A stretch of 47,359 nt of DNA, counting the filler, from Jimgerdemannia flammicorona (taxonomy: Eukaryota): assembly GCA_003990765.1 (NCBI GenBank). It is 2 parts of 2 records of this genome, joined end to end, with 100 filler letters (N's around TTAATTAATTAA, not from the genome) between each part and the next. Parts side by side here need not be neighbours in the genome. Positions count along the whole stretch, not along the records: positions 1 to 23,630 come from RBNJ01001086.1; 1 more part is not named here. One strand, written 5' to 3'. The notes beneath the pieces are model-generated. The model worked only from the letters and a program-made list of their open reading frames with translations, did no database searches and was not told where the DNA came from. A program made the translations under genes and the position numbers. This document shows, one piece after another, positions 9,031 through 35,032 of the stretch; the stretch's first letter is position 1; each line of letters opens with the position of its first letter.

Positions 9031-9042
9031 ACATTATTTCTT

Positions 9043-11576
9043 ATGAACAGTACAACCAACATTTTTTCTTTGAATGTAAATGGGTTACAGGGTTTATTTT
9101 GATAATAGAACATTTTTGCTTAGCTGAAGAGATTGGAGGCTGATCTCTTTCTTTTACAGGATGTCAGATATGAGGATGATTTGGATAAACTGGAATAGAC
9201 AAAGGAATAGAGAGGGGAGGTAGTTTGGAAGGGCAAGGTTAGGATTCTGGTCTAGAGGGGTAGAGGGGAGATATAAGATATGTGGAACTGGGGAGACAGG
9301 CTGGTCTGGAGAGAGTGGATTTGTACTGGTCAAGAGCTAGTTATAGTGGAATTCTGCTACTGCCCTGCTGTACAGAGTGAGTATATAGGGTGGGTGAAGG
9401 GTCTTCAGAAGAAAGAGACCCTAGCAGAGGCTGGAGTAGATGTGCTTGGCAGGGACTTTAATATGGTCAGAGATGTACTATTGAATAGAACTAATAGAGG
9501 GTAGAGGGTAGAGGGTAGGAGTGGAGGTTTGGAGGTATAGAAGGAAGTAGAGCAGTTGAGTACTTTATTGAATACTGGCAGAGGGTTTTGGGGTGATAGG
9601 AGGGTATATGTATTGGGCAAATGATCTGAAGATAAAGATAGACTGGATTTTGATGGTAGACTACTGGGGCCTAGATGTTTGAAGATCACTGGAGGCTGAA
9701 TGGTATCCATGGTCTGATCATTAGAGATTATTAGAATAGAGCTATTTTGGAGAGAGTGAAGATGAACTGAGACATTGGTACCTCAACTTCTCCTTGTTAG
9801 ACAATAAGGTACTATAGGACAAGTAGGCTGAGGATATTTGGCAGAGAGTAAAGGGATGGATACAGGAAGGTGCCCTAGTTAGAGTTAGGTAGATGAGGCT
9901 AAAAGAGGCTGCTAGGGTCTATTGGAGAGAGACCAGTAAGGTGGCTGGTAGATAGAGAAGGAAGAGGATATTGTGGGCTTCTGCTAGACTGATAAGACTG
10001 TTGGAAGATTGGGCAGATTTGTTGGCCCTAGAGAGGGTGGAGGATTGGAGATTATTATGGGTGAAAAAGGAGATTGTTGAGTTGTAACAGATATTGCAAG
10101 AGAAGGAGGAAGTACAGGTGCAGAGTTTGGTAGCATGACTACATTGATAGGGGCTGGAGGAAGGAGAGAGGTCCTCTAATTTTCTCACAAGAGTCCTTTA
10201 GATAAGAAGAGTTCAGCAGAGATAGGAGGGGGTTCTTGATTCTAAGGGGCTATTGGTACATGGTATATAAGATATTCTCAGATTATTGAAGGAGAGGTGG
10301 AGTAGTTTGTGGAGTGAGAAGGAGAGTGGGGCTGATGCTACCACCATTGATCATGTTTTAGAGGATTAGCACTTACCACAGGTAGAAGGACTGAGTGACC
10401 TGGTATTGCTTGCCCCTTTCTCCACTATCTTATCAGTCACAATAGTTTGGTAGGCAATCTTCTAAGTCCACTTTCCACAATTATTATCCCCTCTATCTCG
10501 GGTTGGTTTGCTGTATCTATTGCAGGGTAGTGGGAGGGAGGCAATGGTGATAAGTTGCCCCTTTATTAGTGTCAGATCAGTATCTTCTCTACTTTTTCAT
10601 AGTTTCTAGTACCTTTGGCTGTATCTGAAGTGTATCTGTTTTAGTGTAGTGCCTTCTTTCTTTTACCATCACCAATAAGGTGCTGTCTCAGTATATTATG
10701 AGCTATATAGGGAGTCAGCTGACCTTGGGCATCAAGTGCTCAGTATAGGTTACCTACAGATTCTCAGTACCTATAATGGGGCCCTCTGGCTTTAGCAAGC
10801 TTTCTGGTGAGTGTGGTTCTGATATAGGTGACTGCTTTTTAGGTATTGTCAGAATGGGAGGAGAGATAGTCATTACAGATAAGAGGAAGGACAATAATAG
10901 TAGACCAGTAGGGTGCCAGACTAGGGGCAGTTGTTGGGGCTGAGACAGGTGCTGCTTCAGTGGGGCCTTTTGATTGGTATGGAGCAGTTAGGTAGTAGGT
11001 ATCACTCTTGACTTCTTTTGGTAATTTGGCAGATTGGGCCCTAGTTGTTGGAGGGGGTCAGGGGGCCCAAGACTATCTATTTCAGATATCTTGGCTATAC
11101 TTAACTAGAACTAGGAGCTGATATAGCAATGTGATTAAGACCTATAGACTTGAGTAGTAGAGTATTGGGGGTCTCCTCCTGCCTTATATATAAGTCCTTT
11201 ACTTACCTCAACTAGAAGAACCAGGTTCTACCTACTATAATGTACTTTGATGAGAGTTTTTCTTTATCTGTCATTCTCTTTAGAGTGGTGGGAGCTATTC
11301 TATTTAGCTTGGACATAGCCTTGTATATATATTGGGTCTCAGACATGTGCTTTTGGTCATTGGTGTATGGCTGGGTTCCCCCTGGTGATAGAGAGAGTAT
11401 AGTGTGCAGAATGAGATATAGGCCAATATAGGCTCTACTGTATCTGGCATAGTTGAGCTGCTAGACAATAGCTAGCCTAGATTAATAGGGGAGCAGTACT
11501 TGATAGGTGGTGGGGGAGGGTTTTGGCCTATATAGTCTAGGTTCCCTTCTAATAAAAATCTACAGGACATTGAGTC

Positions 11577-11620
<44 letters not shown>

Positions 11621-13273
11621 GTATTGCTGGTGCAGGAGAAGGAGATTTGTCAGATTCTTATTACAACTATGCTGAGTATAGTATCAGGAGAGGATAGCCT
11701 GCTCTGGGATTTCTGGAAGAAGATAGTGGGTGTTTCTAGTATACTAGAAGAGCTAAGGACACTTTGTGACTTAGTTCTATAGTCCAGGAGATAGGTAGGT
11801 GAGCAGGATTTGGGGCTGATGGTACTGCTGTATAAGAATAAGGACAGGAGAGAGAACTAGAAGAACTGGAGGCTGATCATGCTACTGGATATAGACAGAA
11901 AGTTGGTTACTAAGGTAGTAGTAACAAGGCTGCAGAAAGTGGCCCAACAGGTCTTGGGAGAGAGCAGTAGAGCTTTGTTGGGAGCTGGCTCATTCAGGAT
12001 GGTATGGCTTAAATATACAGCATTATTGAAGAAGCATGAGCCTGTGGACTAGATGGGCACCTAGTTTTCTTGAATTAGAAAAAAGTATACAACTATGTTC
12101 AGAGGGTCTGAATGGTAAAGATACTAGATTAGATTGGTATCTCTCAACAGTTCCAAGTGGCAATGGTCAGTCTACTGAAAGGGAGCAGAGCTGTAATCAT
12201 GTATAATGAGTATTGGGGGGTGGCTTTCTCTCTGAATAGGAGTGTTCCCTAGTGGGACCCACTGTCCTCTATTCTGTATATACTCTTCTTGGAGCCTTTA
12301 ATGAATAGAATTCAGCAAAGGATAGGAGGGCTTTCAATATTTGATATTAAGTATCTTTGTGGATAATATAGTGGTCAGCCTAGACTCAATTACCAATATT
12401 GAGGAACTCAAGGAGACTATGGAGTAGTATGAGACATACTCTGGGGCTAAACTCAATTAATGTAAGTATGAAATAATAGTGCTGGGTAATGGTCTGGTGG
12501 GGAGGAATATCATTGGAACAATTGTCTCTACTAGGGAGGCAGTAAGGTACTTGAGCATCTATCTTTTAGTATATAGGTCAGTTCTACCAAAACTCTGATA
12601 GGAGCAGTAGGTAGTTATCTAGAGAGAAGCCCTGCAGAGTTAGAGAGACTGTCACTTGTCTCTGGCAGGATATATTTCTATCTTGAATGTTTACTGGCTG
12701 CTGAAGTTGTGATATTTGATATATCATCTGGACTTCCCAGCCTAGGTGGTGAAGAGACTGCTGAAACTGGCCAAGGGGTGGATTTGGGCTGAGAGGAGGA
12801 GTCAGATTAGCTGGAAAATCTTGTCTTTGTCAGTGACTAGAGAGGGACTTGGGCTGGTTGACTTTCTGAAGAGATTGTACTGCCTGAGAGCATGGTGACT
12901 GAAGAGAGCTATGGAGCTGAGGGGTAGTAGCTGGGTTTCTCTAATAAAGAAGGTCTGGAAGATAAGGTTCTCACTGAGAGACTCTATAGGAGATCTACTG
13001 TCCTTGGTTAGGCTTCAGAATAATGGATATATGTAGTTTAAGGGCTTCTGGTGGAAAGTTATAGATAGGATATACCATATTGACATTTATTGACAGAGAG
13101 ATGAAGGAGAGATTTCTTAGGGTCCAGTAATGTAGAGATGGAACTGAGTGTTGCTGGGGGGTATCCTCCTTAGTGACTTCAATATTGGTGATAGGGTTGA
13201 GTACCAGAGAGGGTTGGGGCAGGATCTGTAGCCCAACAGATAGTAGTTGGTAGGTATTAGAGAAGAGTGGGAC
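9043..13273 (+). pseudogene. LINE ORF2 (APE endonuclease + RT), decayed and interrupted; C-terminus continues at 19762-20195
   Basis: MNSTTNIFSLNVNGLQG, ADLFLLQD, GRDFN, SDH (APE motifs); KNWRLIMLLDIDRKL, GVP*WDPLSPILY, YLSI (RT motifs). Confidence 0.88.
10411..11616 (+). mobile_element. 1.2-kb poly(A)-tailed retroposed insertion of a different family
   Basis: 36-nt A tail at 11581-11616; perfect TSD cctggtattgct at 10399-10410 and 11617-11628; interrupts LINE ORF2. Confidence 0.88.
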
Positions 13274-13289
13274 TAGTACTCCAAATGAG

Positions 13290-13555
13290 TCAATTTAAAT
13301 CAAATCCAGATTCAATTCGTCACATAATGGTTTGATCCAAATCTCAAATCTGAAGCCATCTGAATTAACTCAGATTAATCTGAATTACCCTATCTGAATT
13401 ACCTTATCCAAATCACCCATCTGAACCACTCTAATCTGAATCACTTAATCTGAATCACTCAATCTGAATCACTCAATCTGAATCACTCAATCCAAATCAC
13501 TCAATCTGAATTCTCATCTGAATCTTTCAACTGAATCCTCCAATCCAAATCCTCC
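13290..13555. repeat. hAT left subterminal repeats, about 14-bp unit aatctgaatcactc
   Basis: Directly visible tandem units at 13433-13510 with degenerate copies around them; related atctga/aatcga motifs at the right end (19645-19735). Confidence 0.85.
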
Positions 13556-13656
13556 ACATGACTCATATGCTGGATGCATCTATAATATAATATACATACA
13601 TGCATATACAATATACACACACACATACACATGTATACACAAACATGCAAATACAT

Positions 13657-16251
13657 ATGTTGACAGATCAGTCTTCAACAGTTTACAGTACTGATGATGC
13701 TTCAAGTCAAACATCTCTGATAGTTCCACACCTTCCACACAATTCTCACTCCAAAATCTAGCAATATTGTGCTAAGATAGGAGATGATGTTGTTTGTAAT
13801 TATTGCAGGTAAAAAATTAAGACGCACCTATTGACACTTTTTGTTTTGACATATATATGATATTGTTTCATCCACCCCCATAAACTGCACCAGTCAGAAG
13901 TTCAAAATGCTTAGTGGTATGACTTTAAACATGAATCAATATATAAAAGACAAGCACTCTGACAAAATCAAAAAGAACATGAAGATAAATAAAATCAACA
14001 TCTCAGCTGTAGTGGGTATGTTTATCTGATTGCCTGACCATTTCTGTACCAACAATACTGTTTAATCAAAAATATTTAGCCATACTCTTTGGTAGAATTT
14101 CGAAATCAGCTCATTTGCTAGATTGTATGTATAGACTAGCCATTCACAATCATCAAGAGTAATCAATTGTATAGCATCTTTGGCCTCCTCAAGCATGATT
14201 TATATTTGCCAAATGCTGATACTATTTGCAAAAATGTCCTGAAGGCCTATAGGAAGGAGCATGACAATCTCTGTCAGATACTTCAGATAAAATAAGGACA
14301 GCACCATGACCTTTACAAGCTGAATTATATAAAAGAGCTTACCAATTTAACCTCACATTCAATAAGCAAAATTTGGCAGACAAAATTTCATTTATAATTG
14401 ATACATGGATATCTTCCAATATAATTTTGTTTCTGGGTATTACTGGTTATTGGATTGATCTCAATTGGTAGCTTAAATCTCTCACTCTTAACTTTGTCAA
14501 ACTTGCTGGCCCTCATTCTGGAGACAATATCACAGATGTTTTTATTAGTTGTATCTGGGAGCTTAGAATCACAACTAAGGTAAAAAAGGGGGGCTTGCCA
14601 TTAGATCAGTATTTTGAGGGAGGTCTTAAAATAAACCAAATTTTATTAGTTATTTATTTTTGCATAAATTCACTAACTGAATATTTCAAGTACAGATTTT
14701 GGCCATTATGATGGATAATACTACAAATAACTCAACATTTTTCAAAGTTTTAGCAACTAGCCTCAAATAGAAAAATATGGCCTTTGATATAAAAAGCTAC
14801 TGTATGTGATACTAGACCCACATACTGAACTTTACTGTTCAGAACTATCTTGCATGTAGACAAAACATCCAAGAGAGGAGGGGCCCTGAGTATAATTTCC
14901 AAACTGTACAAACTGATTGTATTGGTCCAATCATCCCCATAATGATAAGACAAATTCACTATACAGTGTAGGGCAATCAGTTTAGCCCCAAAAGAACTTA
15001 TATTGGACATCTGTACATATTAGAACTCAATATTTGTAATGATCTAGTATATGCTAGAGTTTGCTATGGTATATGTTCTTTTTTTTTCTTTGGTCAGCTG
15101 AAGCAACTTGTTTCAGATGATTGAAGATTTATTTTAAAAAAAAAAAAAAAATACAAAAAAAACCAATAGATTCAACAGTGACTGCCAACAAGGAAATATG
15201 GGCCAAGGCTCTAGGTGAAAGTGAGTGGAATATACTTAGGAATGTTGTCAGAGTTTTGGAAGTAAGTGGTGATTGCTCTGGCTCCACACTCATTTTATCA
15301 GTCTTAACACCCATTTTGTCTGCCTCTGTACAATACAACACCTCACCACATATAACTGCCAGTGTTTTGATGATTGTACAAAGGATATAGTCAAACAAAT
15401 GACCCTGACAATAAGCTCAGCAATACCAGTATATAATCTTCTAATTGACTGGCTAGAGAATAAGCTTGAGGATAGGCTAGAGGGTTATAGTGATTTACAG
15501 TTGAGTCTGGATCAGAGAGACACTATGGAGGTTGCTCTTAGCAAGCTCAGAAAGTACTACTCCCAAACAGATACCACCATATACTCAATCAGTACAGGTA
15601 TGTTGATATCAGCATAAGGCCATTGCTCTTTCCAAAACAGAGAAACCTCTGCAAAAACTCACTCTCTCCTTTTCTTCAAACAGTGCTGGACCCATGCTTA
15701 AAGCTACAATACTATAAAGATCAGGGCTGGGAGCAGCACTTTATTGAGAGAACCAAGCAGGTCATAATCAAAGTATACTGGAAAAACTATATATCACTGC
15801 AAGGTTCTGACCAAAGTCTGGATGAATATGCTGAGGGATCTCTCCTATTCCATATTTATTTCAGCAGAAAGAGGAAGAGGGAGCCATCAGTAGAAGAGCT
15901 GCCATCAATAGATGAACTTACCATTTACCTCACCAGTGACTGTATGATCCTGCTGGAGGGTGTGGAGATGCTCAACTAGTGGAAGGTGGGTTGTCAGATA
16001 GGTATTGGACCAATTTAACCCACTAATCTAACTACTGCTCTATCCACTGGGGTGTGCAGCTGCATCAAACAGACTTCCCCAGCCTGTGTGATATGACTCA
16101 GGACTACCTGGCAATTCCTGCCTCCAGCACTCCCATCAAGCAGATGTTCTCAGATAGGGTGGACCTCATTGCCCCAAAGAGGTGTGCACTGAATACTGAG
16201 ACAATCCAGGCATATATATGTCTGAAGTCTTGGTGGGGCTCAGGCTACTAA
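13657..16251 (+). pseudogene. hAT transposase, multi-exon, inactivated by stops
   Basis: BED finger (SKI*QYC...VCNYC | intron 13809-13893 | ...MNQYIKDKH); IDTWIS...FLGITGYWID, GPHSGDNI, MDNTTNN, HILNFTVQ, LDICTY*NS (DxxTRWNS), VLDPCLK, and the dimerisation domain DYLAIPASSTPIKQMFS...ETIQAYICLKSW. Confidence 0.93.
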
Positions 16252-16410
16252 AATTTGGCAGGTCCTAGGGGTTTGTAGATAAGTTGGTTGGTCTTATGGA
16301 ATATTTAATACCTTTCAAAAATAATAAAAAGGTAAAAAATCCTGAAGACTCAGTCTAGAGTTTGCAGCCCAAGTGGGCAGCAGTCAGTAGAGTTGGTGAT
16401 GGTGGTGGTG

Positions 16411-17066
16411 GAGAGAGTGTGTAATATTTGCAGCCCTCTGCCAGCAGCAAGGGGCAGCCCTAAGCTATCAGTACCTGAGTTGGTGGATGGATCAGCAGAG
16501 GGAGCATACAAAATTTGCAGCTCTCCACCAGCAGCAAGAGGCAGCCCCAAGCCACAAGTATCCTGGTCAGAGGGGTTGGTGGAGGGGGGGTTGGTGGAGG
16601 GAGTGTACAAAACTTGCAGCCCTTTGCCAGCAGTGAGGGGCAGCCCCAAGCTGTCAGTATCTGGGTCAGTGAGTAGGGTCAGTTGATAGGGTTGGTGGGT
16701 ATGGGGTTGGCAGAGAGAGCATGCAAAATTTGCAGCCCTCTGCTGGCAGCAAGAGGCAGCTCCAAGCTGCAAGTATCTGGGACAGGTAGGGCAGGTAGAG
16801 GGAGCATACAAAATTTGCAGCCCTCTGCCAGTAGCGAGGGGCAGCTCCAAGCTATCAGTACCCAGATCAGTAGGTGGGATCAGTCAGCAGGGTTAGTGGG
16901 TGTAGGGTTAGCAAGGGAGTGCATAAAATTTGTAGCCCTCCACTAGTAGCAAGGGGCAGCCCTAAGCTATAAGTGTCTGGGACAGGCAGGGCAGGTAGAG
17001 AGAGTATGCAAAATTTGCAGCCCTCCACCAGTAGCATAGGGGCAGCCCCAAGCCACCAAGGAGTCC
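16411..17066. repeat. Array of 7 conserved ~65-bp units separated by variable 20-50-bp linkers
   Basis: Core aaatttgcagccctc(t/c)gccagcagc(a/g)aggggcagccccaagc in units starting near 16411, 16498, 16597, 16713, 16798, 16914 and 16998. Confidence 0.9.
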
Positions 17067-17074
17067 AGGGCAGA

Positions 17075-17175
17075 GAGTACTTCTGGCAGTCAAAGGGTAC
17101 TTCTGGCAGTTGGAGGGTACTTCTGGTGGTCAGAGGGTATTTCTAGTGGTTGAAGGGTGCTTTCAGCAGTTGAAG
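17075..17175. repeat. 20-bp tandem repeat x5 (gggtacttctggcagtcaga-like)
   Basis: Directly visible degenerate tandem units. Confidence 0.8.
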
Positions 17176-17423
17176 TCCACTACAGATTCAGGCCCTGTTA
17201 CTGGTTTGGGTCCCACAGACACCCTGGCCCTATACCACAGTACTATACTGGTAGCACTACAGAGCAGAGCCAAGGGGCTGGTAGGGCTCTGTATAATAGC
17301 TAAGCTAGTGCTACAGAAGAGGTACTCAGCCCAACCCCCTACATAAGACTGCTCAACCTGTACAAAATGACTGTCTAACCCTTATGAAAGACTGCTTATC
17401 CCTTATAAAAGATTGCCTAACTC

Positions 17424-19508
17424 TTATAAAAACTGCTCTACCTGCCAGTCCCAGGTCTTGATGAGCCTATTATCTATTGTGAGTACAATGACTGTTGTGT
17501 CTGAGCTCTCCTCAAAGGCGATGGTACTATGGTGGTCATATAGTTGGAAGAGGATGGCCATGTTGGCCACAAACAGGACCCCAAAACCATAGATGAAGTC
17601 ATACCAGACTCCTCTGCTATCCTCCCAGGTTGGGCTCTTCCTTTCTAGAGTGTAAAACATTACTGGAGTGATATTGTTGTTTGTGTATATGGGTAGAGAA
17701 ATATTGTACCTGATGTATTCTAATGTGATACAAGTATATGGTTGAGTGAACCCTTGGCCCAGGACCTCATACTGCTAGGCTGTACTGGTAGATGCCTGCT
17801 CTTGGTCTAGCCCCAGGAGCCCTGGCTTAGAAACCTGCCAAAATGGATGGCAACTGGTCAGTTCTTTTTGCATGCAGGGGGGCAGAAACCCCCTGGGCCA
17901 CAGAAATCCCCTAGGCCACAGAAACCCCTCAGGCTGCAGCACCCCAAAAAAGTGGAGCTTCTTATCTAATATGGCATGCTAAATTATGCCAAGAATATAT
18001 ATACAGCTATACTGGATCACTACTAAGCTAGTCTGCTGTATACTCTACCAATCTGCTCAAAGAACTCCAGATCATAGCTGCCATTGCCATACAGACCATA
18101 TCATGCTTGCACACAGTTTGCTCTTTGATGGTATTTCTAAAGTTCCAGTAGGGGTACAGAATCTTGTGTATCTCTGGAATTGTATCAAAAAGAGTATGTT
18201 AGTGAAGAGTATAATTTATCTGAGGAGGAGAAAAAAAAAAAGAAAGACAAGTGTAGGGGATTTTAGAACTCTGGAACCCACCATTCACCAGTATTGAAGT
18301 ATACCCAATTCCCATCCAAACCCCCCCTCCTTGCTTTTTTTGTCCTCTCTTTCCTGCTACTTAGTATTTGATGCAATCCTTATAAATCTTGTTAATATGG
18401 CAGCAAAGCTCATCACTGTAGAGGTTCCTTACCACCATTGTAATCACCTCTCTATATTCATTAATAAAGATATAGTTCTCTTCATTGTTGGTTACTCCTG
18501 CTGGCCAATAGACCCCTTGGTTGAGAATGATTGGCTCTAATTTGAATGTAGACCCTCAAGCCTTGATGACGATGCTGGTACTGCTTATGCTGAATATCTT
18601 GCCCTCAAATTTCTCTATTTGATCAGATGCCAGATGTGGTTGAACTTAGGTAACTTTGAACTCTCCTTTCTAATGGAACTGAGCCCTGATCTGAGGGACT
18701 GAGATAAGTGTGTAGATGGGTTGCATGCAGACAGGTTGCATGCAGATGGATTGTATGCAGGCAAGTTGTATGCAGACAGGTTTAGAGAGAGACCACATAA
18801 AAAATGAAATTAAATAAAACACAGAGATGGGTATTTCAGAAAAAGAGCATAAGTGAGTAAGTGAGTAAGCTATATACCAATGAGTTGCGTATTGACAAGT
18901 TGTATGAGTTATACAAGATTGCTCATAAAGACTTACTTCTGTTCCTTTTGAGACCTCTGTCACACGATGCATTGACTCAACAGCTCAGCCACCAAAGGCA
19001 TGTCCCACAACATCCTCTAACCTTTCTTCATTTTGACCAGATATTGCAAATAAAGTTGGCAGATCTCACCATAGAGCTGTGGACCCTAAGAAGAGTATGA
19101 GGTGAATCAGGTCATACTGGGAGAATTTAAATAAGTAAAAAGTAGCAGCAGAAAAGAGCAACCTATATCTACTACTGACTGTTCCAAAAAGGCTACTGTA
19201 TATATAGCTGTGAGATCTGTAAATTCCAAGGTCCAAAGGGCTACTGTGAGTTGTTGCTGTAATTCACCCTCATCCCTGCCATCACCATTGTCATCACCAT
19301 TGCCATCACCATCACCATCACCACTGCCATTGCCCCTTTGGCTCTTGATGAGCAGCTTGTATACTATTCATATGAGAAAGAATCTAACATTATCAGCAGA
19401 GAGTGTGTTTCCACCTCAAATACTCCCTCTTTTGATAATTATTACAGAGTGAAAAATGAGTAGATTGGACCAATGAATAAATTAAGGGCTGCTGTTTTGT
19501 TTGCTCAT
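17424..19508 (-). pseudogene. Spliced passenger gene inside the hAT; candidate TET/JBP-like 2OG-Fe(II) dioxygenase
   Basis: ATG at 19508; reading frames broken mostly by transition-type stops; approximate exons 19508-19163, 19116-18937, 18790-18282, 18173-18049, 17834-17424, with GT donors and ctaac/ctgac...cag acceptors. The last exon resembles the TET/JBP catalytic core. The gene itself is well supported; the product call is an inference. Confidence 0.6.
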
Positions 19509-20577
19509 AATGTGACAGAAAAGAACAAAGAAAAAGAACAAAGAAAAGAGAGAGAACAAAGGAAAGGGTGATGTCACCAAAGTGCAGCAGAAAAAAAAAA
19601 AAACAAGAGTGAAATGAATAAAAGAAAGGGTAATATCACCAAAGATTTCAATCTGGATCAGATCACAAGACCAATCTGAGTTGATTCAAATCTATCACAT
19701 AATGAACCTGAATCGAATCTCATCCAGATCAACTCCATTTGTTCAGAGCACTAAGTGGGACTGGAATAGGGTCTGGGCCTAGAGTACTGAGGTTAAGCAG
19801 TGGCTGCCATTGAAGTATTGGGTGGTCTGGTGATACATGTTGAGGAGAAATGTTATACTCAACTTTTGCTCTGGCCACCTTGTGGGAGAGAGAAACTTTG
19901 ACTATAAGGAGTGCTACAATATTAGACAAGAAGGGGGTTTTGTGCAGATATCTGAATATTGGCTAGGGGAGTATGAGATGCTTAGTAACCTCTAGATAAT
20001 AGTTAGAAGATGATTGGATATAATACAGAGGGGGTATGGTGTGAGGAGTTGGTAGAAGGATTTGCAGGATAGATTGGTAAGAGAGGTTGGAAAGAAATGG
20101 CTTACTTTAGATTGGGTACTGGCTATATATGTGGGATTGGTGAGTCACTGGTTATTTGATTTTAAGGAAAAGAGATGTCTGGGCTTAGAGGGCCTACTCA
20201 CTGTTTTTCTCTCTTATTATTACTCCTTTTATTGCTCATTGTTTGCTCCTTCCTTCTTACTAAAGGCCACTCACTATATTCATACTGTTTACCTGCTCTT
20301 CGTTTTCTTGTCTTATTATTGCTCATTGTTCAGTAAAAGAGGCTATTATTATATGGTGAGACTATAGTTATGATTTGCCATTATGTCATCTAGTGGCTTG
20401 CCTCATCAACACATCCAATACTCTTGTCTCCAGTCAGCCAGTATATTTAGGCTTAGAGAAGAAAAAAAACAGAGTGAGTTTCATTCAGTTTATCATATTG
20501 GCTAATTATACTGGCTCTCTATACCAGCTTATTGTTCTTTTGAGAGGGAGGAGAGTCTTACCTTATTGTTATTTTCA

Positions 20578-20745: not shown

Positions 20746-22322
20746 GTGGGGACTTTGGCAGAGGATACTTCAGCAGAGGGAACTTTGGCAGAGAGAGACT
20801 TTGGCAGAGAGGACTTCAGCAGAGGGGACTTTAGTAGAGGAGACTTCATTTTAGCAAAGAGAACTTTGGCAGAGGGGACTTTGGCAGAGGAGAATTCAGC
20901 AGAGGGGAATTCAGCAGAGGGGACTTTGGCAGAGGGAACTTTGGCAGAGAGAACTTTGGCAGAGGGGAATTTGGCAGAGGAGACATCATTTTGGCAAAGA
21001 GAACTTTGGCAAAGGAAATTTCAGTAGGGGGATTTCAGTAGAGGGGACTTTGGTAGAGGGGACTTCAGTAGAGAGGACTTCAGTAGAGGAGACTTAGCAG
21101 AGGAGAATTTGGCAGAGAGGAATTTGGCAGAGGAGACTTTGGCAGAGAGAACTTTGGCAGAGAGAACTTTGGCAGAGAGAACTTTGGCAGAGAGGACTCT
21201 ACTTTAGTAAAGAGAACTTTGATAGAGGGAACTTTATCAGAGGAAACTTTATCAGAGGGCACTTTAGTAGAGGGGACTTTAGCAGAGAGAGCTTTGGCAG
21301 AGGGGGCTTTAGCAGAGGGGACTTTGGCAGAGAAGACTTTGGTAGAGAGGGCTTTGGCAGAGGGGACTTTGGCAGAGGAGAATTCAGCAGAGGGGAATTC
21401 AGCAGAGGGGACTTTGGCAGAGGAAACTTTGGCAGAGAGAACTTTGGCAGAGGGGAATTTGGCAGAGAAGACTCCATTTTAGCAAAGAGAACTTTGGCAA
21501 AGGAAATTTCAGTAGGGGGATTTCAGCAGAGGGGACTTTGGTAGAGGGGACTTCAGTAGAGGAGACTTCAGTAGAGGGGACTTGGCAGAGGAGAATTTGA
21601 CAGAGAGGAATTTGGCAGAAGAGACTTTGGCAGAGAGAACTTTGGCAGAGAGAACTTTGGCAGAGGGAACTTTGGCAGAGGGGACTCTACTTTGGCAAAG
21701 AAAACTTTGATAGAGAGAACTTTATCAGAGAAAACTTTGTCAGAGGGCACTTTAGCAGAGGGGACTTTAGCAGAGAGGGCTTTGGTAGAGAGGGCTTTGG
21801 CAGAGGGGACTTTGGCAGAGAAGACTTTAGTAGAGAGGGCTTTGGCAGAGGGGACTTTGGCAGAGGAGACTTTGGCAGAGAGGGCTTTGGCAGAGGGGGC
21901 TTTGGCAGAGGGGGCTTTAGCAGAGGGGGCTTTGGCAGAGAGAGCTTTGGCAGAGGGGGCTTTGGCAGTAGAGACTTCAGCAGTAGGGGCTTCAGCAGAG
22001 AGAACTTCAGCAGAGGGGGTTTTGGCAGAGTGAGCTTCAGCAGAGGGGGCTTTGGCAGAGAGGGCTTTGGTAGAGAGAGCTTCAGTAGAGGGGGCTTCAG
22101 CAGAGGAGGCTTTAGTAGAGGGGGCTTTGGTAGAGGGGGCTTTGGCAGCAGAAGCTTCAGCAGAGGAGACTTTGGCAGAGAGAGCTTTGGCAGAGAGAGC
22201 TTTGGTAGAGGGGGCTTCAGCAGAGGGGACTTCAGCAGAGAAGGCTTTAGCAGAGGGGGCTTTGGCAGAGGGGGGCTTTGGCAGTAGAGGCTTTGACAGA
22301 GGAGACTTTAGCAGGAGAGGGG
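20746..22322. repeat. 15-bp minisatellite (ggcagagggg(a/g)cttt), about 100 units, with a ~488-bp higher-order duplication
   Basis: Directly visible; explains the EGTLA/SAKAP/LPKFS pentapeptide ORFs in all frames. Confidence 0.97.
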
Positions 22323-22329
22323 AGGTTAT

Positions 22330-23630
22330 AGAAACAATTGTCCCCACCAGTAAAGCAGCGTGGTACTTAGGTATCTACTTATCAGTCTATGGATCAGTTC
22401 TGCCCAAGCTTTGGTGGGAGCAGAGGATTGGAATCTGAGAGGAGGCTCTGCGGAGTTGGGGGGGAAGATATTTTTCTCTGGCAGGGCAGGTCTCGATTTT
22501 GAATGTCTACTGGCTGCCAAAGTTGTGGTACCTGGCATATCATCTGGACTTCCCAGCCTGGGTAGTGAAGAGATTGATGAAGTCGGCAAAGGGATGGATT
22601 TGGGCTGGCAGGCGGAGTCAAATTAGTTGGGAGACCTTGTCCCTACCAGTGGCAAGAGGCGGTCTTGGGCTGGTTGACTTCCCAAAACAGTTATACTGCT
22701 TGAGAGCATGGTGGCTGAAGAGGGCAGTGGAGTTGAGAGGAGGTGGATGGGTTCCTCTGTTACAGAAGTTATGGGAGAGGCGGGCATTGCCAAGGGGCTC
22801 AACTGGTGATCTCCTCTCCTTGGTTGGGCTTCAGAACACTGCCCAACTATGATATAAAGGATTTTGGTGGAGAATTGCAGAAGGAGTGCACCGCATTGGT
22901 ATTCGTTGGCAGGGGAATGAAAGTGAGGAGGATTGGGACCCAGCAATGTGGAGATGGGACCGTATACTGCTGGGTGGTGCTCCTTTAGTTGAGTTCGACA
23001 TTGGTGATGGAATGGAATGCCAAAGGGGACCAGGCCAGGATCTGTAGCCTAGCAGTTGGCAAGGAGTTAGAATTGGCGAAGAGTGGAACTGGCATAGTGT
23101 TTGGACCTGGAGCACTGCAGTGAGAGCATGGCTGCCACCAAAGTACTGAGTGGTCTGGTGGCGCATGCTGCAGAGGAATGTTATGCTCAATTTTCACTCA
23201 GGGCACCTGGTTGTAGGGGGTTGCTTCAACTGTGAGGAGTGCCATAATGTAGGGCAGGAGGAGGGTTACATACAAATGCCTGAATATTGGCTAGGAGAGT
23301 GTGAGGTGTTGGGGGATTTTTGGCAGACAATTGGGGATCACTTAGGGGTACAGAGTAGGAGTGATGAAGTATGGGGGCGATAGGAGGACTTGAGGGTTAG
23401 ATTGGTAGAGGAGATAGGGAAGGAGTGGCTTACTTTAGGTTGGGCTTTGGTAATTTGGGTGGGGCTGGCCAGTCATTGGCTATTTGTTTTTGAGGATGGG
23501 AGGAGGCAGAGCTTGGGGGACCAGCTGCTATGATGGCATAGGCTTATGGAAGATACCTTAACAGGCTGGTGGCTGGGTTGGGGGATGCAGGGTGGTCGGA
23601 GGCACTACTTGGTGGAGAAAATCTGTAGGC
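22330..23630 (+). mobile_element. LINE ORF2 C-terminal fragment, least mutated copy, cut by the gap
   Basis: YLGIY, KLWYLAYHLDF...ISWETLSLPVARGGLGLVDF, WWRMLQRNV...CEEC...EYWLGEC; retains CpGs. Confidence 0.9.
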
Positions 23631-23730
23631 NNNNNNNNNNNNNNNNNNNNNNNNNNNNNNNNNNNNNNNNNNNNTTAATTAATTAANNNNNNNNNNNNNN
23701 NNNNNNNNNNNNNNNNNNNNNNNNNNNNNN
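23631..23730. other. Assembly gap with artificial TTAATTAATTAA spacer
   Basis: N run with a six-frame stop linker at 23675-23686. Confidence 0.97.
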
Positions 23731-26700
23731 CATCTCTATTAGTTATCTTCAATAACCCCCCCCCAACCTCTCACCCCCTCTATCACTCATTCAATAGGTC
23801 CATCATTAGCCACTTCTATCTTATCCTCAATATCATCTACTTGCTATTCTTAAATATATACATCCAATATTCTATAAGCCCAATCCAGATTGCCAGCACC
23901 TATCCTAATATCAACCACTCATCTCTCAACCCCTCTACCTGTCTCTCCCAGAGGTCACTCCACCATTCTCCCACCTCTAACCCTGGTGGACACACTACAG
24001 CCATACCTTAATTGCCCTCCAAAAGTCACCCAACACCTCACACTCTCCTAGCCAATGTTCAGATATCTGTACCACTCCTCTCTTCTGTCTTATGTTCAGA
24101 TACTCCTCATACTCCTGGCTACCTCCTTCCACCAAGTGACCTGACTAGTAATTCAACATTATATTGTACTATAGAAGTCTTTATAATACTACTCAGAACT
24201 TGGGGGGAATCTATCTTATCATCTGCTTACTCTATGTTTAAATGCTATTTTAGTCCCACTCTTCTTTAATCTCCAACTCCTGCTATACCTCAGGCCACAG
24301 ATCTCTCCCATGCTTCTGAAGGCTCTCCATTCTATTCTCTAAGCAGAAGTCATACTGATACCCCACCCAGCAGAAGGCAGTCCCACCTCTATATCTGAGG
24401 TCTCTATTTCTCCTCTCTCTTCTTACCCCACTATTAGAGACCAATACAATGAGCCCCATCAACTACTCCTCACCAGAATCCTCTATAGTATATCTTCTGA
24501 CTCCCCTTGAAGGCTACTAGAGATAGTAAATCCCCAGTTATATCATGGGGAGAGAACTAGACCTTTCACACTCTCTGTATGAGGAGAACTCACTCACTAC
24601 TCCTCAACTTACTAGCTTTCTTCAGCCACCATACCCTCAAGCAATAAAGATACTTGAAAAAATCCACCAGACCCAGGCCACCCTGGTCCACTAGTAAGGT
24701 CAACACCTCCTAGCCAATCTGACTCCATCATTCTGCCTATATCCAGATTCTGGTCATCTTCAATAGTCTCTTGACCACTTGTGCTTGAAAGTCTAAGTAG
24801 CAGCCTAGATACTATAGCTTAGATAGTCAGCACAATCACTCTCACTACTAAAGATATATACTAATCACCCCACTCTAAGAGAGTACTCCCCCACTCTGCC
24901 AACTACTGTTTCTATCATCTGTGAGATAATAAGGAGCCATATGCTGAAAATAGATCTCCAGATTGTAAACTGCCTCTCCTATAGAGACAATTGTTCCAAT
25001 TATGTCCCCACCTATAATCTCTCTCCCCAACACTAAGGTCTCATACTTATGCCAGTTGAACTTAGTACTCAAGTACTCCTCATATCACTCTACTGTATCT
25101 TTCAGTACTGCTATATCTTCTGCTAACTCTAGCCTGCTCACCATATCATTGGCAAAGGCCCCTATCTTCCAATTAACCCCCAGAATATCCAGCCCCCCCA
25201 CCTTTTGCCTTATCTAATCCAAAAGAGGCTTCAGGGAAATTGTATATAGGATTGATGAGAGTGGATCCCTCTGTAGAACTCTCTCTGCCCAGAGGAAATG
25301 AAATCCCTCTTGGCCTATTCACTATGATTGCTATCCAACTCTCTTCTAGCAGACCAACCAAGATCTGCTGGACCCCAGAGGGGATCTCTATATACTTTAG
25401 TACCCCTTCTAACCATGCTTATCAGATCTTATTATAGGCCTTCTCTTAGTCTAGGAACAATAGCCTTTTATCTACTCCAGTAGTACAAGTTCCCTCAATA
25501 ACCCTATGTATCCAGGCTATCTTATCTCTGATCAGACATTCCCCTATAAATTATCTCTACTCTACTCCTAGAACTCACTGAGTCACTCTCTGTAGCCTAG
25601 CTATCAGTATCTTTATTATCAGTTTATGATCCATATCTAGCAGTATAATTAACCTCCAGTTTTTTCACTCCTCTCTCTCTCTCTTATTCTTAAATAGCAG
25701 AGCCACAAGACCTAAGCACTGCCCTCCAATCTAAACCCCTGAGCTAATAATTTCATAATACATCACTGTTATTTCCTTCAAAATTAGCTCAAAACCTGCC
25801 ATCTTCTTCCAAAAATCCCATAGTAAACTATTCTCCCTGGATACTGTCTCTGAGCTCATAGTCATCAGTACCAGCTGAATCTTCTCTCCTTGGACAATAG
25901 CACTAAGGTCACCTAAGCCTACTGTTGGATCAGGATGCCAGTTCTCTAAGTATCTATCAATGTCCAGCACCCCCACCCCCCCTTCCTTCTCAATCCCAAT
26001 CACTCTCACTATATACTCAGCTGGTCCAAAATCTCCAGAGTATCAACAACCAACTTCTCTACCTCATCCAATACCCCTTCCCATCACTGCTGAACTCTCC
26101 TCATCTGTAGAAGATACAATAGAAACTTTGTAGGCCTCTCCCTCTCCTCCAGTCTCTACTACTATAGCTGGGCCACTCTGCTCTATATCTATAGATCTTC
26201 TTCCTGCTCCAGCAATCACTCCAACTTCTCCACCTCTAGCCAGATCCACTGGGCCCTCCAATCTCTCTCTTCACTATCATTCAGCTTGTCTGCCCATATT
26301 TCCAGTAATCTCACCAACCTCTGGGAGGCCCACCTCACTCACTTCCTTCTCTAAGCACTACATAATCTTCCTGTATTCTCTCAGTACTATTGTGCAACTA
26401 ATTTCAGTCACCTCTAGTGATCCTCAATTAGCAACCCCTTCATTCTCCATCTCAGTATTCTGGATCCAATGTCTGTCACTCATATATCTCATAAGGAGGC
26501 CTCTCCAAGCAATGAGGTATTCAGGCACCAATGTCTAGGCTCCTCCCCACTTCCCCCAAAGCTCCCCTCTCTCAGAAGGTCTGAGTGATCAGATCATGGA
26601 CACTAAACAGTTTTCAAAGATCTCCAGATATCAACTCCCCAGTATTCAGCAGTCAACATTCAGTCAATCCTCAAGCCCAATCTAATTACTTAGTAAGTAT

Positions 26701-29278
26701 AGATGCTGCAATCCCCCGATCCAAGTCTCCCAGCATCCACTAAGGAACTCAGATATTTGACTTCCTCCCAGGCTTCTATCCTACTACTCCTACCAGCTAT
26801 CTCCCTTCTCTCATCAGTTCTATCCACCTTCCCATCCTATATCATATTAAAGTCTCTATCTTGACAGTCAATCCCTATCTCTACTAATACTCTAGATTCT
26901 TGTAGTTCTTGAATTTATTCTACCCTCTCCCTTCTTTCTTCTGGACAATAATATGACCCAATAGTTAAGAGACTCTAGTCTGGCCTTCTCTAAACTCTCC
27001 ACACTATCCTGCTTCTCCAATGTTCAATATTACTAATATTTCCCTTGTCTTTTCTAACCAGAATACCCACATTTCCACTTCAAATAGCTATACTACCTCA
27101 TTCCTTCATCTAGTCCAGACTATCTAAGTCTCTATTGCACCCAATATCCTATAGTAGAAACAAATCTACATCCAGTCTCTTTAGCCAGATAAAGATATTT
27201 TAATATCTCTCTACTCTTCATAGTATACTAATATTTAAAGAGAAAATTCTAGTTATACTATTTACATTGAATAATATTTTTTTTATGGAGAATAGCTATC
27301 TACTCTATAATTTCATACTTGCTGCATCACCTGTAACATCTAGATTTCTCTCTATCTATAGCTCCTCTGTCTCTCCCTGCTGAGCCTCCAATATCTTCAA
27401 GATCTCCTAACAATCTACACCATCTACTTCTTCCATATCTGCCTGATACTTCTCACATACTACCTGTTATTTCACCAGTCTCTTTCTTAGATCTCACAAG
27501 TATAAAGCCCTGTCATTTGCAATTACCAGAAGTGCAGTCTCTCTGGCATCATTTACTTGATATGCCTCAGCCTTCAGTAAGGTCACTATTATCTTATCTC
27601 TGAGTTTCTGTAGCACCTCCTCCCCTCACAGGATTTTACCCCAGTTTCTCTCACTCAGCACCAAAAAGTCCTCTCCTCCCAGCTCCTCAGCTGTCATATT
27701 TGTCAGTATTTTTTAAAGCTATCTCTTCTCAATCACAATCTCCTCTACTCTCTGGACCACCTCTTTCTCCCCTTCCACCTGCCCCCCCCTCTGCATTCAT
27801 TCTAGCTGACTCATCTCAATCATCCTTCAGTATATCCTTCAATTCATCATCTCCTCCAGTCCCTACTGGCACTCTATACTGAGTATGCTCCTCCTCACCC
27901 ATCTTCTCATCTTCTATAATAATACTCTGTCCTGTATCTTACTTTTCCCTAATGTCTCCTTGAGTGCTACTTTCTTCTTCTCTGCTCAGACACTTGCTCT
28001 CAACCTAATAACTTCAGTAGCAGTCCCCTCTCTATTCCCTCATCCAACTTTATCAATAGTATATTTTGAATATGACTCTTCTGTACTCTCTCTCAGGTCA
28101 TCTGATCTAGCTACACCTTCTTGTCATTCACAATCTCCATTACCTTCTTGATTTCAACTTTTTTCAGACTAATCTCTTCCTCTCAACAGTCTCTGCCAGA
28201 TCCTCCAATATCTCTAATAAGTCCTCCTCTTCCTCTAGCATCCCTTTCACTCTTGAAACCTTGTACTCTACTAGTCCTCACTTGAGGACTGCTGGCCAGT
28301 CCCTTGCTTTCCCCATATTCTCCTTACCTATCAGCTGCACCCTTACATCCATATCTCCCATTTTAAACTCTGTGCCTTTTCAGATCCAAAACTCAATATC
28401 CATAATGTCTCCATACACCTTAATGGTCTCTACAATCAATCCCCTGACCATCTCCTTCAATACTAAAGGAACATCCAGTACTGTCAACTGTACTACTCAT
28501 GGATCTCAGTATAAGTACCTGGCCATGGAGACCACTACTCCCCCCACTACCACTCTCTTATCCATTTCTTCCAGCAGTATATCCTACTTCTCAAAGTCCA
28601 CCTCCACCTCTTTCTGATCCTTCAAAAACTTCACTAAGACTGCTCCCTTCACCTCTTGGTCCAGTAGTCTCATAATCATTCTCATGATCATTGCCAAGCC
28701 CTGGAAGTATAATGTGATGGCAAATTCTGACCTTGACTTCTTGAGTAACAGTACCACCACCAGGTCTGTTATATTATCTGCCAGATCTCTAGACCTTGTG
28801 CCCACCCCTTGTCCAGATCTACTATTAGCCATTATATTCAGATTTTTTTTCCAGATTAGTAGTTTTCTTATCATCAGCAGTCCTCTCCTTCCAGCCACTA
28901 CTCCCCCAGCCCTACTGCCCTCACCACCAAGGGCCACTCCACCGGACTCTGTATTCTTTGCCATCACCTTACCCTTCCTCAGCCAGCCCTCCAGTCTAGT
29001 TAATGGATGTCTCTCCTTTATCTTAACAGTGAAGCTTATCCTCTCAGTCTCCTATCTGCTCCTCTTCTATATCCTCTAGCCAGTAAGTCCTACATACTTC
29101 CCCCCAAGCCATGACTTCTCCCCACATACTGCCAGTCAAATACACTAGAGTCATCCTACCTAGTATGTATCTCAGAATGCTTGTTAGTTACTATATTGCT
29201 AGTACCTATTCTCCAAAAATAATGTCTTGCAGATTGCTAGAAGTTTGTGTAATCTGAATATTATCAGAGAAAGGTATA
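23731..29278 (-). mobile_element. Near full-length L1/Tx1-clade LINE (ORF1 about 29200-27290, ORF2 from about 27265), decayed
   Basis: Minus strand gives NSITRIFSLNI at the ORF2 start, SDH, NWRLIILLDMDHKL, FLD*EKAYN, FANDM, GGLGLVDF; 5' end homologous to 6912-7070. Confidence 0.88.
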
Positions 29279-29339
29279 CACTGCTCTCTTATCTTTATTA
29301 TTGAACAGTAGTACTACCAGATCAAGCTTTTGCTCTCCA

Positions 29340-30050
29340 ACCTACTCTCCAGATATGAGAATATAATCACAAAGCACTGCTATCTCCCCTAACACCCTAG
29401 GGACCCACACCATCTTTTTTCAAAAATCCCAGAACAGACTATCCTCCCCTAGTGCTATGCCTAATTTTGTGATAGCTGGGACCTGCAGAATATCTGCCTC
29501 CTTAACTGGAAGAACTAAATCTCTAAGATCATCTACCTGTAGAGATTGCCAATCCTCCAGAGAGTACTCTATAGCCTCAGCATTAGTACTTCCTTCCTTC
29601 TCAATCTACAGATCTCCCTATATTCACTTTAGAGAGCCTAAAATCTACTGAGTACTATATTTCAGTATACTCTCTATATCTAATACTTTATCTTATAGTT
29701 ATCACCTAAAGAAGTCATGATAGATACTTAGAAGACTGCTTGTCTTCCTCAAACCTCTGTTATCTCAACCAAGCTGCCATTCTCTTTATACAAGTCCCCT
29801 TCTCTCCCCTCATCACTCTCTGTAACTTCACTATTATCAACTTGGCTTATATCAGTCTCCAATCTTCCACCACCCCCTAGCTCAACAGTTCAGCCCATTC
29901 TACCTATAACCAGACTAATCAATCAGAAGTCTATATCACTCTCCTACACTATTCCTTTCCAGCAAACCTACTAGCCTCTCTCTAATATACTCTAGTAGTC
30001 TCCTTCAACCTCACTCAGTAAACTCTCACTAGAAGCTGATACATCTCTAT
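29340..30050 (-). mobile_element. LINE ORF2 fragment (EN-RT linker), heavily decayed
   Basis: Minus strand LGEDSLFWDF*KKMV matches the GEDSLLWDFWKK motif of the other copies; boundaries approximate. Confidence 0.6.

Positions 30051-34981: not shown

Positions 34982-34985
<4 letters not shown>

Positions 34986-35022: not shown

Positions 35023-35032
<10 letters not shown>

What the first reader, a model, noticed from the sequence alone, without database searches (positions are those of the whole stretch)
17424..19508. hAT transposon carries a convergent spliced passenger gene that looks like a TET/JBP-type dioxygenase
Seen: inside the TSD/TIR-bounded hAT, the minus strand holds a roughly 5-exon gene. 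Its last exon reads QPYTCITLEYIRYNISLPIYTNNNITPVMFYTLERKSPTWEDSRGVWYDFIYGFGVLFVANMAILFQLYDHHSTIAFEESSDTTVIVLTIDNRLIKTW. Inference: reversing single transitions of the type that dominates this window turns Y-T-N (tac-aca-aac, 17687-17679) into H-T-D, TLE into ALG and SRG into GGG. The result is PYT...P-x-HxD-xN...ALG...GG...G.x.F...IL F...HS, with a distal His at about 17529-17534. This has the order and spacing of the TET/JBP double-stranded beta-helix core as I recall it. An upstream exon has KRG...GGFGWELG followed by LYPYW. Known: fungal TET/JBP genes oxidise 5mC and are linked to Kyakuja-Dileera-Zisupton and Plavaka transposons; I know of no established hAT-borne example. In a genome where repeats lose their cytosines, this could be a transposon-encoded anti-silencing module. 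Caveat: the 2OG-binding Arg of the final strand is not visible.
Basis: partly seen in the sequence, partly recalled or inferred. Interest (0 to 1): 0.88.

Follow-up and report, generated by a model that had tools for sequence, protein, structure and literature searches.

The report
Dead hAT transposon with TET-like gene
A decayed hAT DNA transposon in a methylating, probably basidiomycete genome carries a dead copy of a spliced gene that looks like a very divergent TET/JBP-type DNA dioxygenase, a kind of transposon cargo that was already described for rust fungi in 2025.

Summary
A hAT element (13274-19753) is bounded by imperfect TAG...CTA inverted ends and an 8-bp target duplication, AGTGGGAC. 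Two uninterrupted paralogues of the target confirm the duplication. It is not a chance ORF. Metagenome relatives exist (E 5.6e-46, 5.8e-21, 1.2e-5). One contig (L001) holds an intact 4-exon, 358-aa version with two intron positions shared with the window. The window copy is a pseudogene: at least 6 in-frame stops, a frameshift, CpG o/e 0.03. TET/JBP identity is supported only indirectly. A profile-profile match to phage TET/JBP proteins puts the triad in register (P 0.002; 1 of 150 shuffles as good), and language-model neighbours are "Tet-like". Against it: no Pfam or PDB sequence hit, both folds failed, and no conserved 2OG-binding Arg. The novelty claim fails: Kojima (2025) already reports TET-carrying hAT elements. 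This one differs from those (8-bp, not 7-bp, duplication; other termini).

The parts
13266..13273 (.). left copy of the 8-bp target-site duplication AGTGGGAC
   Evidence: two uninterrupted paralogues show an 8-bp overlap of the two flanks
13274..13291 (+). left terminal inverted repeat of the hAT (TAGTACTCCAAATGAGT...)
   Evidence: first 8 nt match the right end in 7 of 8, then CAAATG(G)AGT after a 5-nt indel
13377..13537 (+). subterminal array of 14-bp repeats (AATCTGAATCACTC, 11.7 copies)
13700..16251 (+). decayed hAT transposase gene (many stops); C-terminal dimerisation domain at 16027-16251
   Evidence: PF05699 E 1.7e-10; weak PF14372 E 0.11 at 15273-15617; ORF pieces
16573..17162 (.). 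internal tandem repeats (116/201-bp and 20/40-bp units) between the two convergent genes
17424..17834 (-). last exon of the passenger gene (stop codon 17426-17424). In-frame TAG at 17777-17775; decayed metal-binding motif Y-T-N at 17687-17679; distal His pair at 17534-17529
   Evidence: (tblastn E 1.6e-11 to L001 exon)
17943..18173 (-). middle exon (PYWNF... helical region), with stops and a frameshift; AG acceptor at 18175-18174, GT donor at 17942-17941
   Evidence: (E 0.51, collinear)
18282..18690 (-). N-terminal core exon (...GKRGQKKQGGGVWMGIGYT...), 4 in-frame stops; GT donor at 18281-18280, same position and phase as in L001
   Evidence: (E 1e-7)
18800..19400 (-). possible 5' exon(s) and leader of the gene; not verified
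   Evidence: only by-eye resemblance to L001 upstream ORFs; tblastn found nothing
19731..19753 (-). right terminal inverted repeat (reverse complement TAGTGCTCTGAACAAATGGAGT...)
19754..19761 (.). right copy of the target-site duplication AGTGGGAC

Best explanation
The window holds one dead copy of a canonical hAT DNA transposon with an 8-bp target duplication. When active, the element encoded two proteins. One was the transposase. The other, transcribed towards it from the other end, was a small spliced protein of about 360 aa. That protein is a very divergent member or close analogue of the TET/JBP branch of Fe(II)-dependent dioxygenases, nearest to the 'PU type' that rust-fungus transposons carry.

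Inferred mechanism: the enzyme binds Fe(II) through His-x-Asp and a His 50 residues downstream. It oxidises 5-methylcytosine, or a related modified base, on the element's DNA. This would counter the CpG-methylation silencing and C-to-T decay that this genome imposes on repeats.

Shown: the hAT borders, the gene and its relatives, the conserved triad in relatives, and the decay of this copy.

Inferred: the fold, the substrate and the anti-silencing role.
For: Element.
- The TSD and TIRs are confirmed by two empty-site paralogues.
- PF05699 scores E 1.7e-10.

Gene.
- Relatives score E 5.6e-46, 5.8e-21 and 1.2e-5.
- Metagenome contig L001 has an open 358-aa model of four GT-AG exons.
- Its exons hit the window collinearly at E 1e-7, 0.51 and 1.6e-11.
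- The two introns between the last three exons sit at the same position as in L001, and the first has the same phase.

Triad in alignment A2 of 21 rows.
- First His: 20 H and 1 Y; the Y is the window.
- Asp: 16 D and 5 N.
- Distal His: 18 H, 1 Y and 2 gaps.
- The spacing is 50 residues, the same as H171-H221 in phage Cooper gp2.

Link to TET/JBP.
- hhalign of A2 against 9 phage TET/JBP homologues gave P 0.0021 over 68 columns, with H, D and H in register.
- The full-length family gave P 0.0029 over 107 columns.
- Controls: the reversed alignment scored 12.8, and 150 column shuffles averaged 12.5 (sd 2.7). One of the 150 reached the real score of 28.0.
- ESM Atlas with P0005: rank 4 scored 0.91, sharing 178 of 256 features, and is named 'Tet-like 2OG-Fe(II) oxygenase' (PF20515 in 72% of members). 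Rank 7 scored 0.89 (PF12851 in 31%). The taxa are Basidiomycota.
- By eye, the motifs follow the same order as PU-type proteins in Kojima's Table S1.

Multi-copy, transposon-like behaviour.
- The P0004 cluster has 28 members that differ mostly by transition-type replacements.

Context.
- The hAT has 9 CpG in 6480 bp (o/e 0.033), against o/e 1.05 in the block 34800-39500.
- Precedent: TET+ hAT7 and six other transposon lineages in Pucciniomycetes (PMC12730594, sections 3.1, 3.4 and 4.2 read).
Against: - No Pfam family, including PF12851 and PF20515, matched any exon or relative at E<=10.
- PHROGs gave one weak, uninformative match (phrog_25783, unknown function, E 0.035) and NCBIfam none.
- No PDB sequence related to it matched at E<=10.
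- hhalign probability is only 13% and 11%, and one shuffle equalled the real score.
- The N-terminal half aligns to phage TETs only at P 0.27.
- AlphaFold2 on the last exon failed twice, with pLDDT 35.4 and 37.9, so the fold was never seen.
- The Arg that is invariant 15 residues after the distal His in the phage set (R236) is T, S or L in this family.
- No full-length annotated protein of the family was found.
- Only one hAT copy could be examined because no genome is held. That the gene is a regular part of this hAT family is therefore not shown. L001 has no transposase, and its end resembles the hAT end only weakly (blastn-short E 0.37).
Confidence: 0.65

Rival explanations
1. The passenger is a real, conserved transposon accessory protein but not a TET/JBP-type enzyme. 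The H-x-D...H pattern would then belong to another metal-binding or cupin-like fold, or to a non-enzymatic protein, with a different role in the element's life cycle.
For: All sequence-family searches gave nothing related. The 2OG-binding Arg is absent. hhalign probability is 11-13%, and one of 150 shuffles scored as well. The Atlas search with the N-terminal exon gave only weak gelsolin neighbours at 0.85.
Against: The hhalign match is to the right region, with all three ligands in register and identical 50-residue spacing. The Atlas neighbours that carry a family are Tet-like; 10 of the ten best share that family or clan. The motif order resembles published PU-type TETs.
Confidence: 0.2
2. 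The gene is TET-like but not a regular part of this hAT family. This copy would have acquired it once, by nested insertion of a fragment of another TET-carrying element or by capture of a host gene.
For: Only one copy of the hAT could be inspected. The relatives' contigs show no hAT transposase. Kojima reports frequent transfer of TET genes between transposon superfamilies.
Against: No second TSD/TIR pair brackets the gene; the only flanking inverted repeat is a (GGT)n/(ACC)n microsatellite (I23). The gene and the transposase are equally decayed (CpG o/e 0.046 and 0.023). The L001 end has GATTTGA-type subterminal repeats and a terminus resembling the hAT left end, though the match is not significant.
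Confidence: 0.12
3. There is no gene; the ORFs are chance open frames in transposon filler DNA.
For: The window copy is full of stops and has no Pfam match.
Against: Relatives score E 5.6e-46 and 5.8e-21. An intact spliced homologue has conserved intron positions.
Confidence: 0.01

Closest known systems
TET+ hAT7 transposons of Puccinia (Kojima 2025, PMC12730594)
   Same: A hAT-superfamily element carries a TET/JBP-like gene beside its transposase, in a basidiomycete-type genome that hypermutates methylated repeats. By eye, the protein motifs follow the same order: GG-x-MW-x-IGW, H-x-D, GG-x-F, HxT, GLSLQ.
   Different: The TSD here is 8 bp, against 7 bp. The termini are TAGTACTC..., against CAACGGTGG.... 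phmmer does not link the protein to any annotated rust protein. The Arg before the G-L-S-L motif is missing. No formal alignment was possible.
PU-type transposon TET/JBP dioxygenases (Dileera, IS3EU, Harbinger, EnSpm, ESTA and Helitron hosts)
   Same: A small single-domain protein with an HxD...H triad, encoded by DNA transposons, with a presumed anti-methylation role.
   Different: This family could not be tied to them by any statistical test run here. Their own activity is also untested, according to the paper.
Phage TET/JBP proteins (Mycobacterium phage Cooper gp2 and relatives, PF12851)
   Same: A profile-profile match at P 0.0021 across the HxD-to-His core, with the same 50-residue spacing. 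gp2 itself scores only 26.6 bits against PF12851 (cut-off 34.9), so weak HMM scores are normal in this superfamily.
   Different: The phage proteins keep the invariant Arg (R236). The N-terminal halves do not align significantly (P 0.27).
AG-type TETs linked to Kyakuja/Zisupton, and CcTET of Coprinopsis
   Same: Transposon-linked fungal TET enzymes. According to the paper, CcTET is shown to oxidise 5mC.
   Different: They belong to a different transposon superfamily and protein subtype. No sequence link was found here.
CMD1 of Chlamydomonas
   Same: A TET homologue with a divergent co-substrate: vitamin C instead of 2-oxoglutarate, according to Kojima's discussion.
   Different: It is only an analogy for how an Arg-less TET-like enzyme might work. 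Nothing was tested.

Membership tests
hAT superfamily | 8-bp target-site duplication | tested here: met
   AGTGGGAC on both sides; the flanks overlap by 8 bp on two uninterrupted paralogues
hAT superfamily | short terminal inverted repeats | tested here: met
   TAGTACTC / TAGTGCTC (7 of 8), continuing with an indel
hAT superfamily | transposase with C-terminal hAT dimerisation domain | tested here: met
   PF05699 E 1.7e-10, 41 bits against cut-off 21.4
hAT7 (Kojima 2025) | 7-bp target-site duplication | tested here: not met
   the TSD is 8 bp; the termini also differ from CAACGGTGG
TET/JBP (2OGFeDO) dioxygenases | match to Pfam PF12851 or PF20515 at the gathering score | tested here: not met
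   no hit at E<=10 for the window exons, P0001, P0002, P0004 or the L001 exons
TET/JBP (2OGFeDO) dioxygenases | H-x-D ... H iron-binding triad | tested here: met
   Met in relatives: 20 of 21 H, 16 of 21 D, 18 of 19 covering rows H. Lost in the window copy, which reads Y-T-N.
TET/JBP (2OGFeDO) dioxygenases | conserved Arg after the distal His that binds 2-oxoglutarate | tested here: not met
   R236 is invariant in the phage set; the corresponding stretch in this family has T, S or L and no conserved basic residue
TET/JBP (2OGFeDO) dioxygenases | profile-level homology to accepted members | tested here: inconclusive
   hhalign P 0.0021 and 0.0029, probability 13% and 11%, triad in register; 1 of 150 shuffles as good
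TET/JBP (2OGFeDO) dioxygenases | double-stranded beta-helix fold | tested here: inconclusive
   AlphaFold2 on the last exon gave pLDDT 35.4 and 37.9, so no fold search was run. The spliced full-length protein could not be submitted.
TET/JBP (2OGFeDO) dioxygenases | oxidation of 5-methylcytosine or thymine in DNA | not testable with these tools
   biochemical
PU-type transposon TET (Kojima 2025) | PU-specific conserved residues (the paper's Figure 7) | not tested
   The figure is not held. There is only a by-eye comparison with Table S1 sequences. Those sequences could not be entered into a tool.

The most novel reading that the evidence does not exclude
Canonical 8-bp-TSD hAT elements of basidiomycetes carry a separate clade of TET/JBP-like enzymes that standard family models do not detect. 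The clade has lost the 2-oxoglutarate-binding arginine, so it may use another co-substrate (as CMD1 uses vitamin C) or make a different DNA modification. It also occurs as a multi-copy family in soil eukaryotes that lack CpG depletion (L001, CpG o/e 1.2).
Probability: 0.2. Interest if true: 0.65.

Novelty: new member of a known kind. Interest (0 to 1): 0.38.

Why it matters
Transposon-borne TET-like genes are the main candidate for an active counter-defence of DNA transposons against cytosine-methylation silencing in fungi. This case adds a second hAT lineage and a protein family so divergent that Pfam and phmmer miss it. Such cargo may therefore be under-counted in genome annotation. The missing Arg raises a testable question about co-substrate use. 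The window copy itself is a fossil: it lost its catalytic residues to the same C-to-T decay that the enzyme presumably opposed.

Tried and rejected
- Whole-genome search for other copies: no genome is held. Earlier-findings look-ups returned nothing.
- Pfam, PHROGs and NCBIfam on all exons and relatives: nothing related. The weak hits (7TM_transglut, DUF4176, MFP2b, Mo25, phrog_25783) were judged chance.
- PDB sequence searches: nothing related.
- Search for longer, full-length proteins: none found, twice.
- ESM Atlas with the N-terminal exon: only gelsolin-like neighbours at 0.85, uninformative.
- AlphaFold2 on the last exon alone, with L001 and then P0002 as the target: pLDDT 35.4 and 37.9. 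I ran no fold search on such models.
- Sequencing runs: one soil-metagenome DNA run holding a 0.07 share of the words; no RNA holder listed.
- The genome search with PF12851 and PF20515 on L001: the record is not held.
- L001 as a second hAT copy: it has no transposase similarity, and its end resembles the hAT end only at blastn-short E 0.37. I did not count this as evidence.
- hhalign of the N-terminal half against phage TETs: P 0.27, collinear but not significant.
- P0003 (1874 aa, repetitive, E 3.3e-6) was dropped as a spurious repeat match.
- The 17-nt inverted repeat flanking 16411-19306 is a GGT/ACC microsatellite, and I rejected it as a nested-element border.
- Supplement search for the window's termini among Kojima's consensus starts: no element begins with them. 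Cells longer than 400 characters are cut in the held text, so absence there is weak evidence.
Full report
**What is in the sequence**

The window is eukaryotic, and no genome is held for it. CpG is almost absent from nearly the whole window, with observed/expected (o/e) of 0.00-0.14 per 2 kb. The exception is a block at about 34-40 kb where CpG is normal, at 0.90-1.04. This is the signature of a genome that methylates repeats at CpG and then loses those sites.

The codons TAC ACA AAC (Y-T-N) lie at 17687-17679 and the His pair at 17534-17529.

**The hAT element**

- Ends. The element spans 13274-19753. It starts TAGTACTCCAAATGAGT, and its other end in reverse complement starts TAGTGCTCTGAACAAATGGAGT.
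- Target duplication. Both ends are flanked by AGTGGGAC, at 13266-13273 and 19754-19761.
- Empty sites. The host sequence is itself a repeat. On two uninterrupted paralogues, the left flank ends at 5604 or 23089 and the right flank starts at 5611 or 23082. That is an 8-bp overlap in both cases, so the duplication is real and 8 bp long.
- Transposase. On the plus strand there are decayed transposase pieces. They end in a hAT dimerisation domain at 16027-16251 (PF05699, E 1.7e-10, 41 bits against a cut-off of 21.4).
- Repeats. A 14-bp subterminal array lies at 13377-13537, and internal tandem repeats lie at 16573-17162.

**The passenger gene is real and spliced**

phmmer of the ORF against 1.84 billion representative proteins gave 4 hits at E<=0.001.
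- P0001: 136 aa, 67% identity, E 5.6e-46.
- P0002: E 5.8e-21.
- P0004: E 1.2e-5.
- P0003: a 1874-aa repetitive protein that I dropped as spurious.

The three relatives come from short metagenome contigs and carry no informative names. P0004 stands for a cluster of 28 near-identical members. These differ mostly by replacements typical of C-to-T and G-to-A change, as copies of a transposon would.

A scan of JGI metagenome contigs matched 327 stretches to the patterns, and 2 were confirmed: L001 (3666 bp) and L002 (2870 bp). Both have 34% GC and CpG o/e 1.2.

In L001, four exons (615-647, 745-1180, 1267-1451, 1534-1956) are joined by three GT-AG introns. They give an open 358-aa reading frame.

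tblastn of the L001 exons against the window gave collinear hits.

| L001 exon | Window position | E-value |
|---|---|---|
| N-terminal core exon (745-1180) | 18564-18280 | 1e-7 |
| Middle exon (1267-1451) | 18171-18037 | 0.51 |
| Last exon (1534-1956) | 17849-17505 | 1.6e-11 |

The two upstream L001 ORFs that I tried found nothing.

The two introns between the last three exons sit at the same place in both sequences. The first interrupts the codon after GYT-x5 in phase 1, six codons before P-Y-(W/R)-N-F. The second follows the F/L-rich end of the middle exon.

So at least three exons can be placed in the window: 18690-18282, 18173-17943 and 17834-17424. Four are proven in the homologue. A fifth is possible but unverified.

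- The last exon starts near 17834 and runs through an in-frame TAG at 17777-17775. That position is W in P0001.
- The motif 'GGFGWELG' is read in the wrong frame. The homologue-supported frame gives GKRGQKKQGGGVWMGIGYT.
- TLE derives from T-S-G, not A-L-G. SRG derives from S-G-G.

**The copy is dead**

- The N-terminal core exon has 4 in-frame stops.
- The middle exon has stops and a frameshift.
- The last exon has one stop.
- The hAT as a whole holds 9 CpG in 6480 bp (o/e 0.033). The gene region is at 0.046 and the transposase region at 0.023.

Alignment A2 holds 21 rows of the last exon. I chose these from the 23 proteins and loci in hand, leaving out the short fragments P0015 and P0017 and also L002, which has a stop. 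The counts are:

| Position | Count |
|---|---|
| First His | 20 H, 1 Y (the window) |
| Asp | 16 D, 5 N |
| Distal His | 18 H, 1 Y, 2 rows not covering it |

The two His residues are 50 positions apart. P0001 and P0002 read P-T-H-T-D-N-N where the window reads P-I-Y-T-N-N-N.

**Is it TET/JBP?**

Direct family tests failed.
- Pfam gave no hit at E<=10 for any window exon, P0001, P0002, P0004 or any L001 exon.
- PHROGs and NCBIfam gave nothing related.
- A profile search and two single-sequence searches of PDB sequences gave nothing related.
- Two searches for longer, full-length proteins found none.
- AlphaFold2 on the last exon alone gave pLDDT 35.4 and 37.9. I ran no fold search on these models. 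The spliced protein could not be submitted.

Indirect tests point to TET/JBP.

1. ESM Atlas. With P0005 as query, the top three neighbours are unnamed basidiomycete clusters. Rank 4 scores 0.91, shares 178 of 256 features, and is named 'Tet-like 2OG-Fe(II) oxygenase' (PF20515 in 72% of members). Rank 7 scores 0.89 (PF12851 in 31%). All ten best family-bearing hits share a family or clan; the tool warns that a third of shuffled proteins also do.

2. Phage reference set. I fetched Mycobacterium phage Cooper gp2, which Kojima's Figure 7 legend names as a TET/JBP reference. Its own PF12851 score is only 26.6 bits against a cut-off of 34.9. I took 8 further relatives out of the 102 phage records that matched and aligned all nine as A5. 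In A5, H171, D173, H221 and R236 are invariant.
   - hhalign of A2 against A5 aligned 68 columns, query 35-106 to template 159-230. The score was 28.0, P 0.0021 and probability 13%. H-x-D lay on H-x-D and His on His.
   - The full-length family, spliced inside a script, gave P 0.0029 over 107 columns.
   - Controls: the reversed alignment scored 12.8. The 150 column shuffles averaged 12.5 (sd 2.7, maximum 28.2), and 1 of the 150 reached the real score.
   - The N-terminal half aligned collinearly but not significantly, at P 0.27.

3. By-eye comparison. The PU-type proteins printed in Kojima's Table S1 (for example those of hAT7-2_PGr and IS3EU-8_PSt) show the same order of short motifs as this family: GG-x-MW-x-IGW; H-x-D-x-(N/D); GG-x-F; (V/L)-H-(G/C)-T; G-L-S-L-Q. 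I could not enter those sequences into a tool, so this is a resemblance and not a test.

One defining feature is not met. The Arg that binds 2-oxoglutarate is absent. It is R236 in the phage set, and the R or K two residues before G-(L/F)-S in the PU proteins. This family has T, S, A or L there, and no conserved basic residue nearby.

**Literature**

A search found Kojima 2025, Biology 14:1741 (PMC12730594). I read the abstract, sections 3.1, 3.2, 3.4 and 4.2, and the figure legends, and I searched the supplement text.
- It reports TET/JBP genes in seven DNA-transposon lineages of Pucciniomycetes. These include 20 'hAT7' families from six Puccinia species with 7-bp TSDs.
- It states that this function has not been validated by experiment.

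So a hAT-borne TET is in print. The element here differs: its TSD is 8 bp, and none of the consensus starts held in the supplement text begins with its termini. hAT7 elements start CAACGGTGG or CAACACTGG (long cells are cut in the held text). A second search added no other hAT case. I did not read Iyer et al. 2014 and know it only through this paper's citations.

**What remains open**

- Whether other copies of this hAT carry the gene. No genome is held. L001 has no transposase, and its GATTTGA-rich end resembles the hAT left end only at blastn-short E 0.37.
- The fold of the full-length protein.
- Expression and splicing in the source organism.
- The organism itself. Relatives and Atlas neighbours point to Basidiomycota, and the published precedent is in rust fungi.

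**Verdict**

The TET/JBP reading is probable but rests on indirect evidence, and one defining residue is missing. The claim of a first hAT-borne example is superseded. I file this as a new member of a known kind, with moderate interest.

Noticed in passing
window 7001-13000, 21001-23000, 24001-30000, 41001-47000: Long repeat blocks (retroelement-like; weak RVT_1 hit E 0.006 at 11861-12052) have extreme GC skew of +/-0.3 to 0.58. Between paralogues, transitions outnumber transversions about 10 to 1 (144 against 14), and they are strand-asymmetric (112 purine-purine against 32 pyrimidine-pyrimidine changes on the plus strand). This suggests strand-biased deamination and not only CpG decay.
   Followed up: partly
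window 34800-39500: This is the only CpG-normal block (o/e 1.05, 199 CpG) in a CpG-free window. It holds a 538-aa open frame at 35397-37013 (+), which I did not run through Pfam or any other search. It is presumably an unmethylated host gene.
   Followed up: no
window 20748-22314: A 15-bp minisatellite (GGGGACTTTGGCAGA, about 103 copies, with a 488-bp higher-order period) lies just right of the hAT insertion site. It gives long spurious ORFs in several frames.
   Followed up: no
window 30001-35000: A very AT-rich stretch (GC 19-29%) sits between the repeats and the CpG-normal block.
   Followed up: no
window about 23679-23770: A run of 88 N (an assembly gap) lies inside the second retroelement-like paralogue.
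   Followed up: no
L001 2320-3372 and 3490-3632: Downstream of the intact homologue lie further open frames with no family match. After them comes an array of GATTTGA repeats ending in a sequence that resembles the window hAT's left terminus. This may be a transposase-less relative of the element, but the match is not significant.
   Followed up: partly
L001 / L002 against the window: The same gene family occurs in an AT-rich eukaryote with normal CpG (o/e 1.2) and in this CpG-depleted genome. So the cargo is not confined to genomes that show CpG decay.
   Followed up: no
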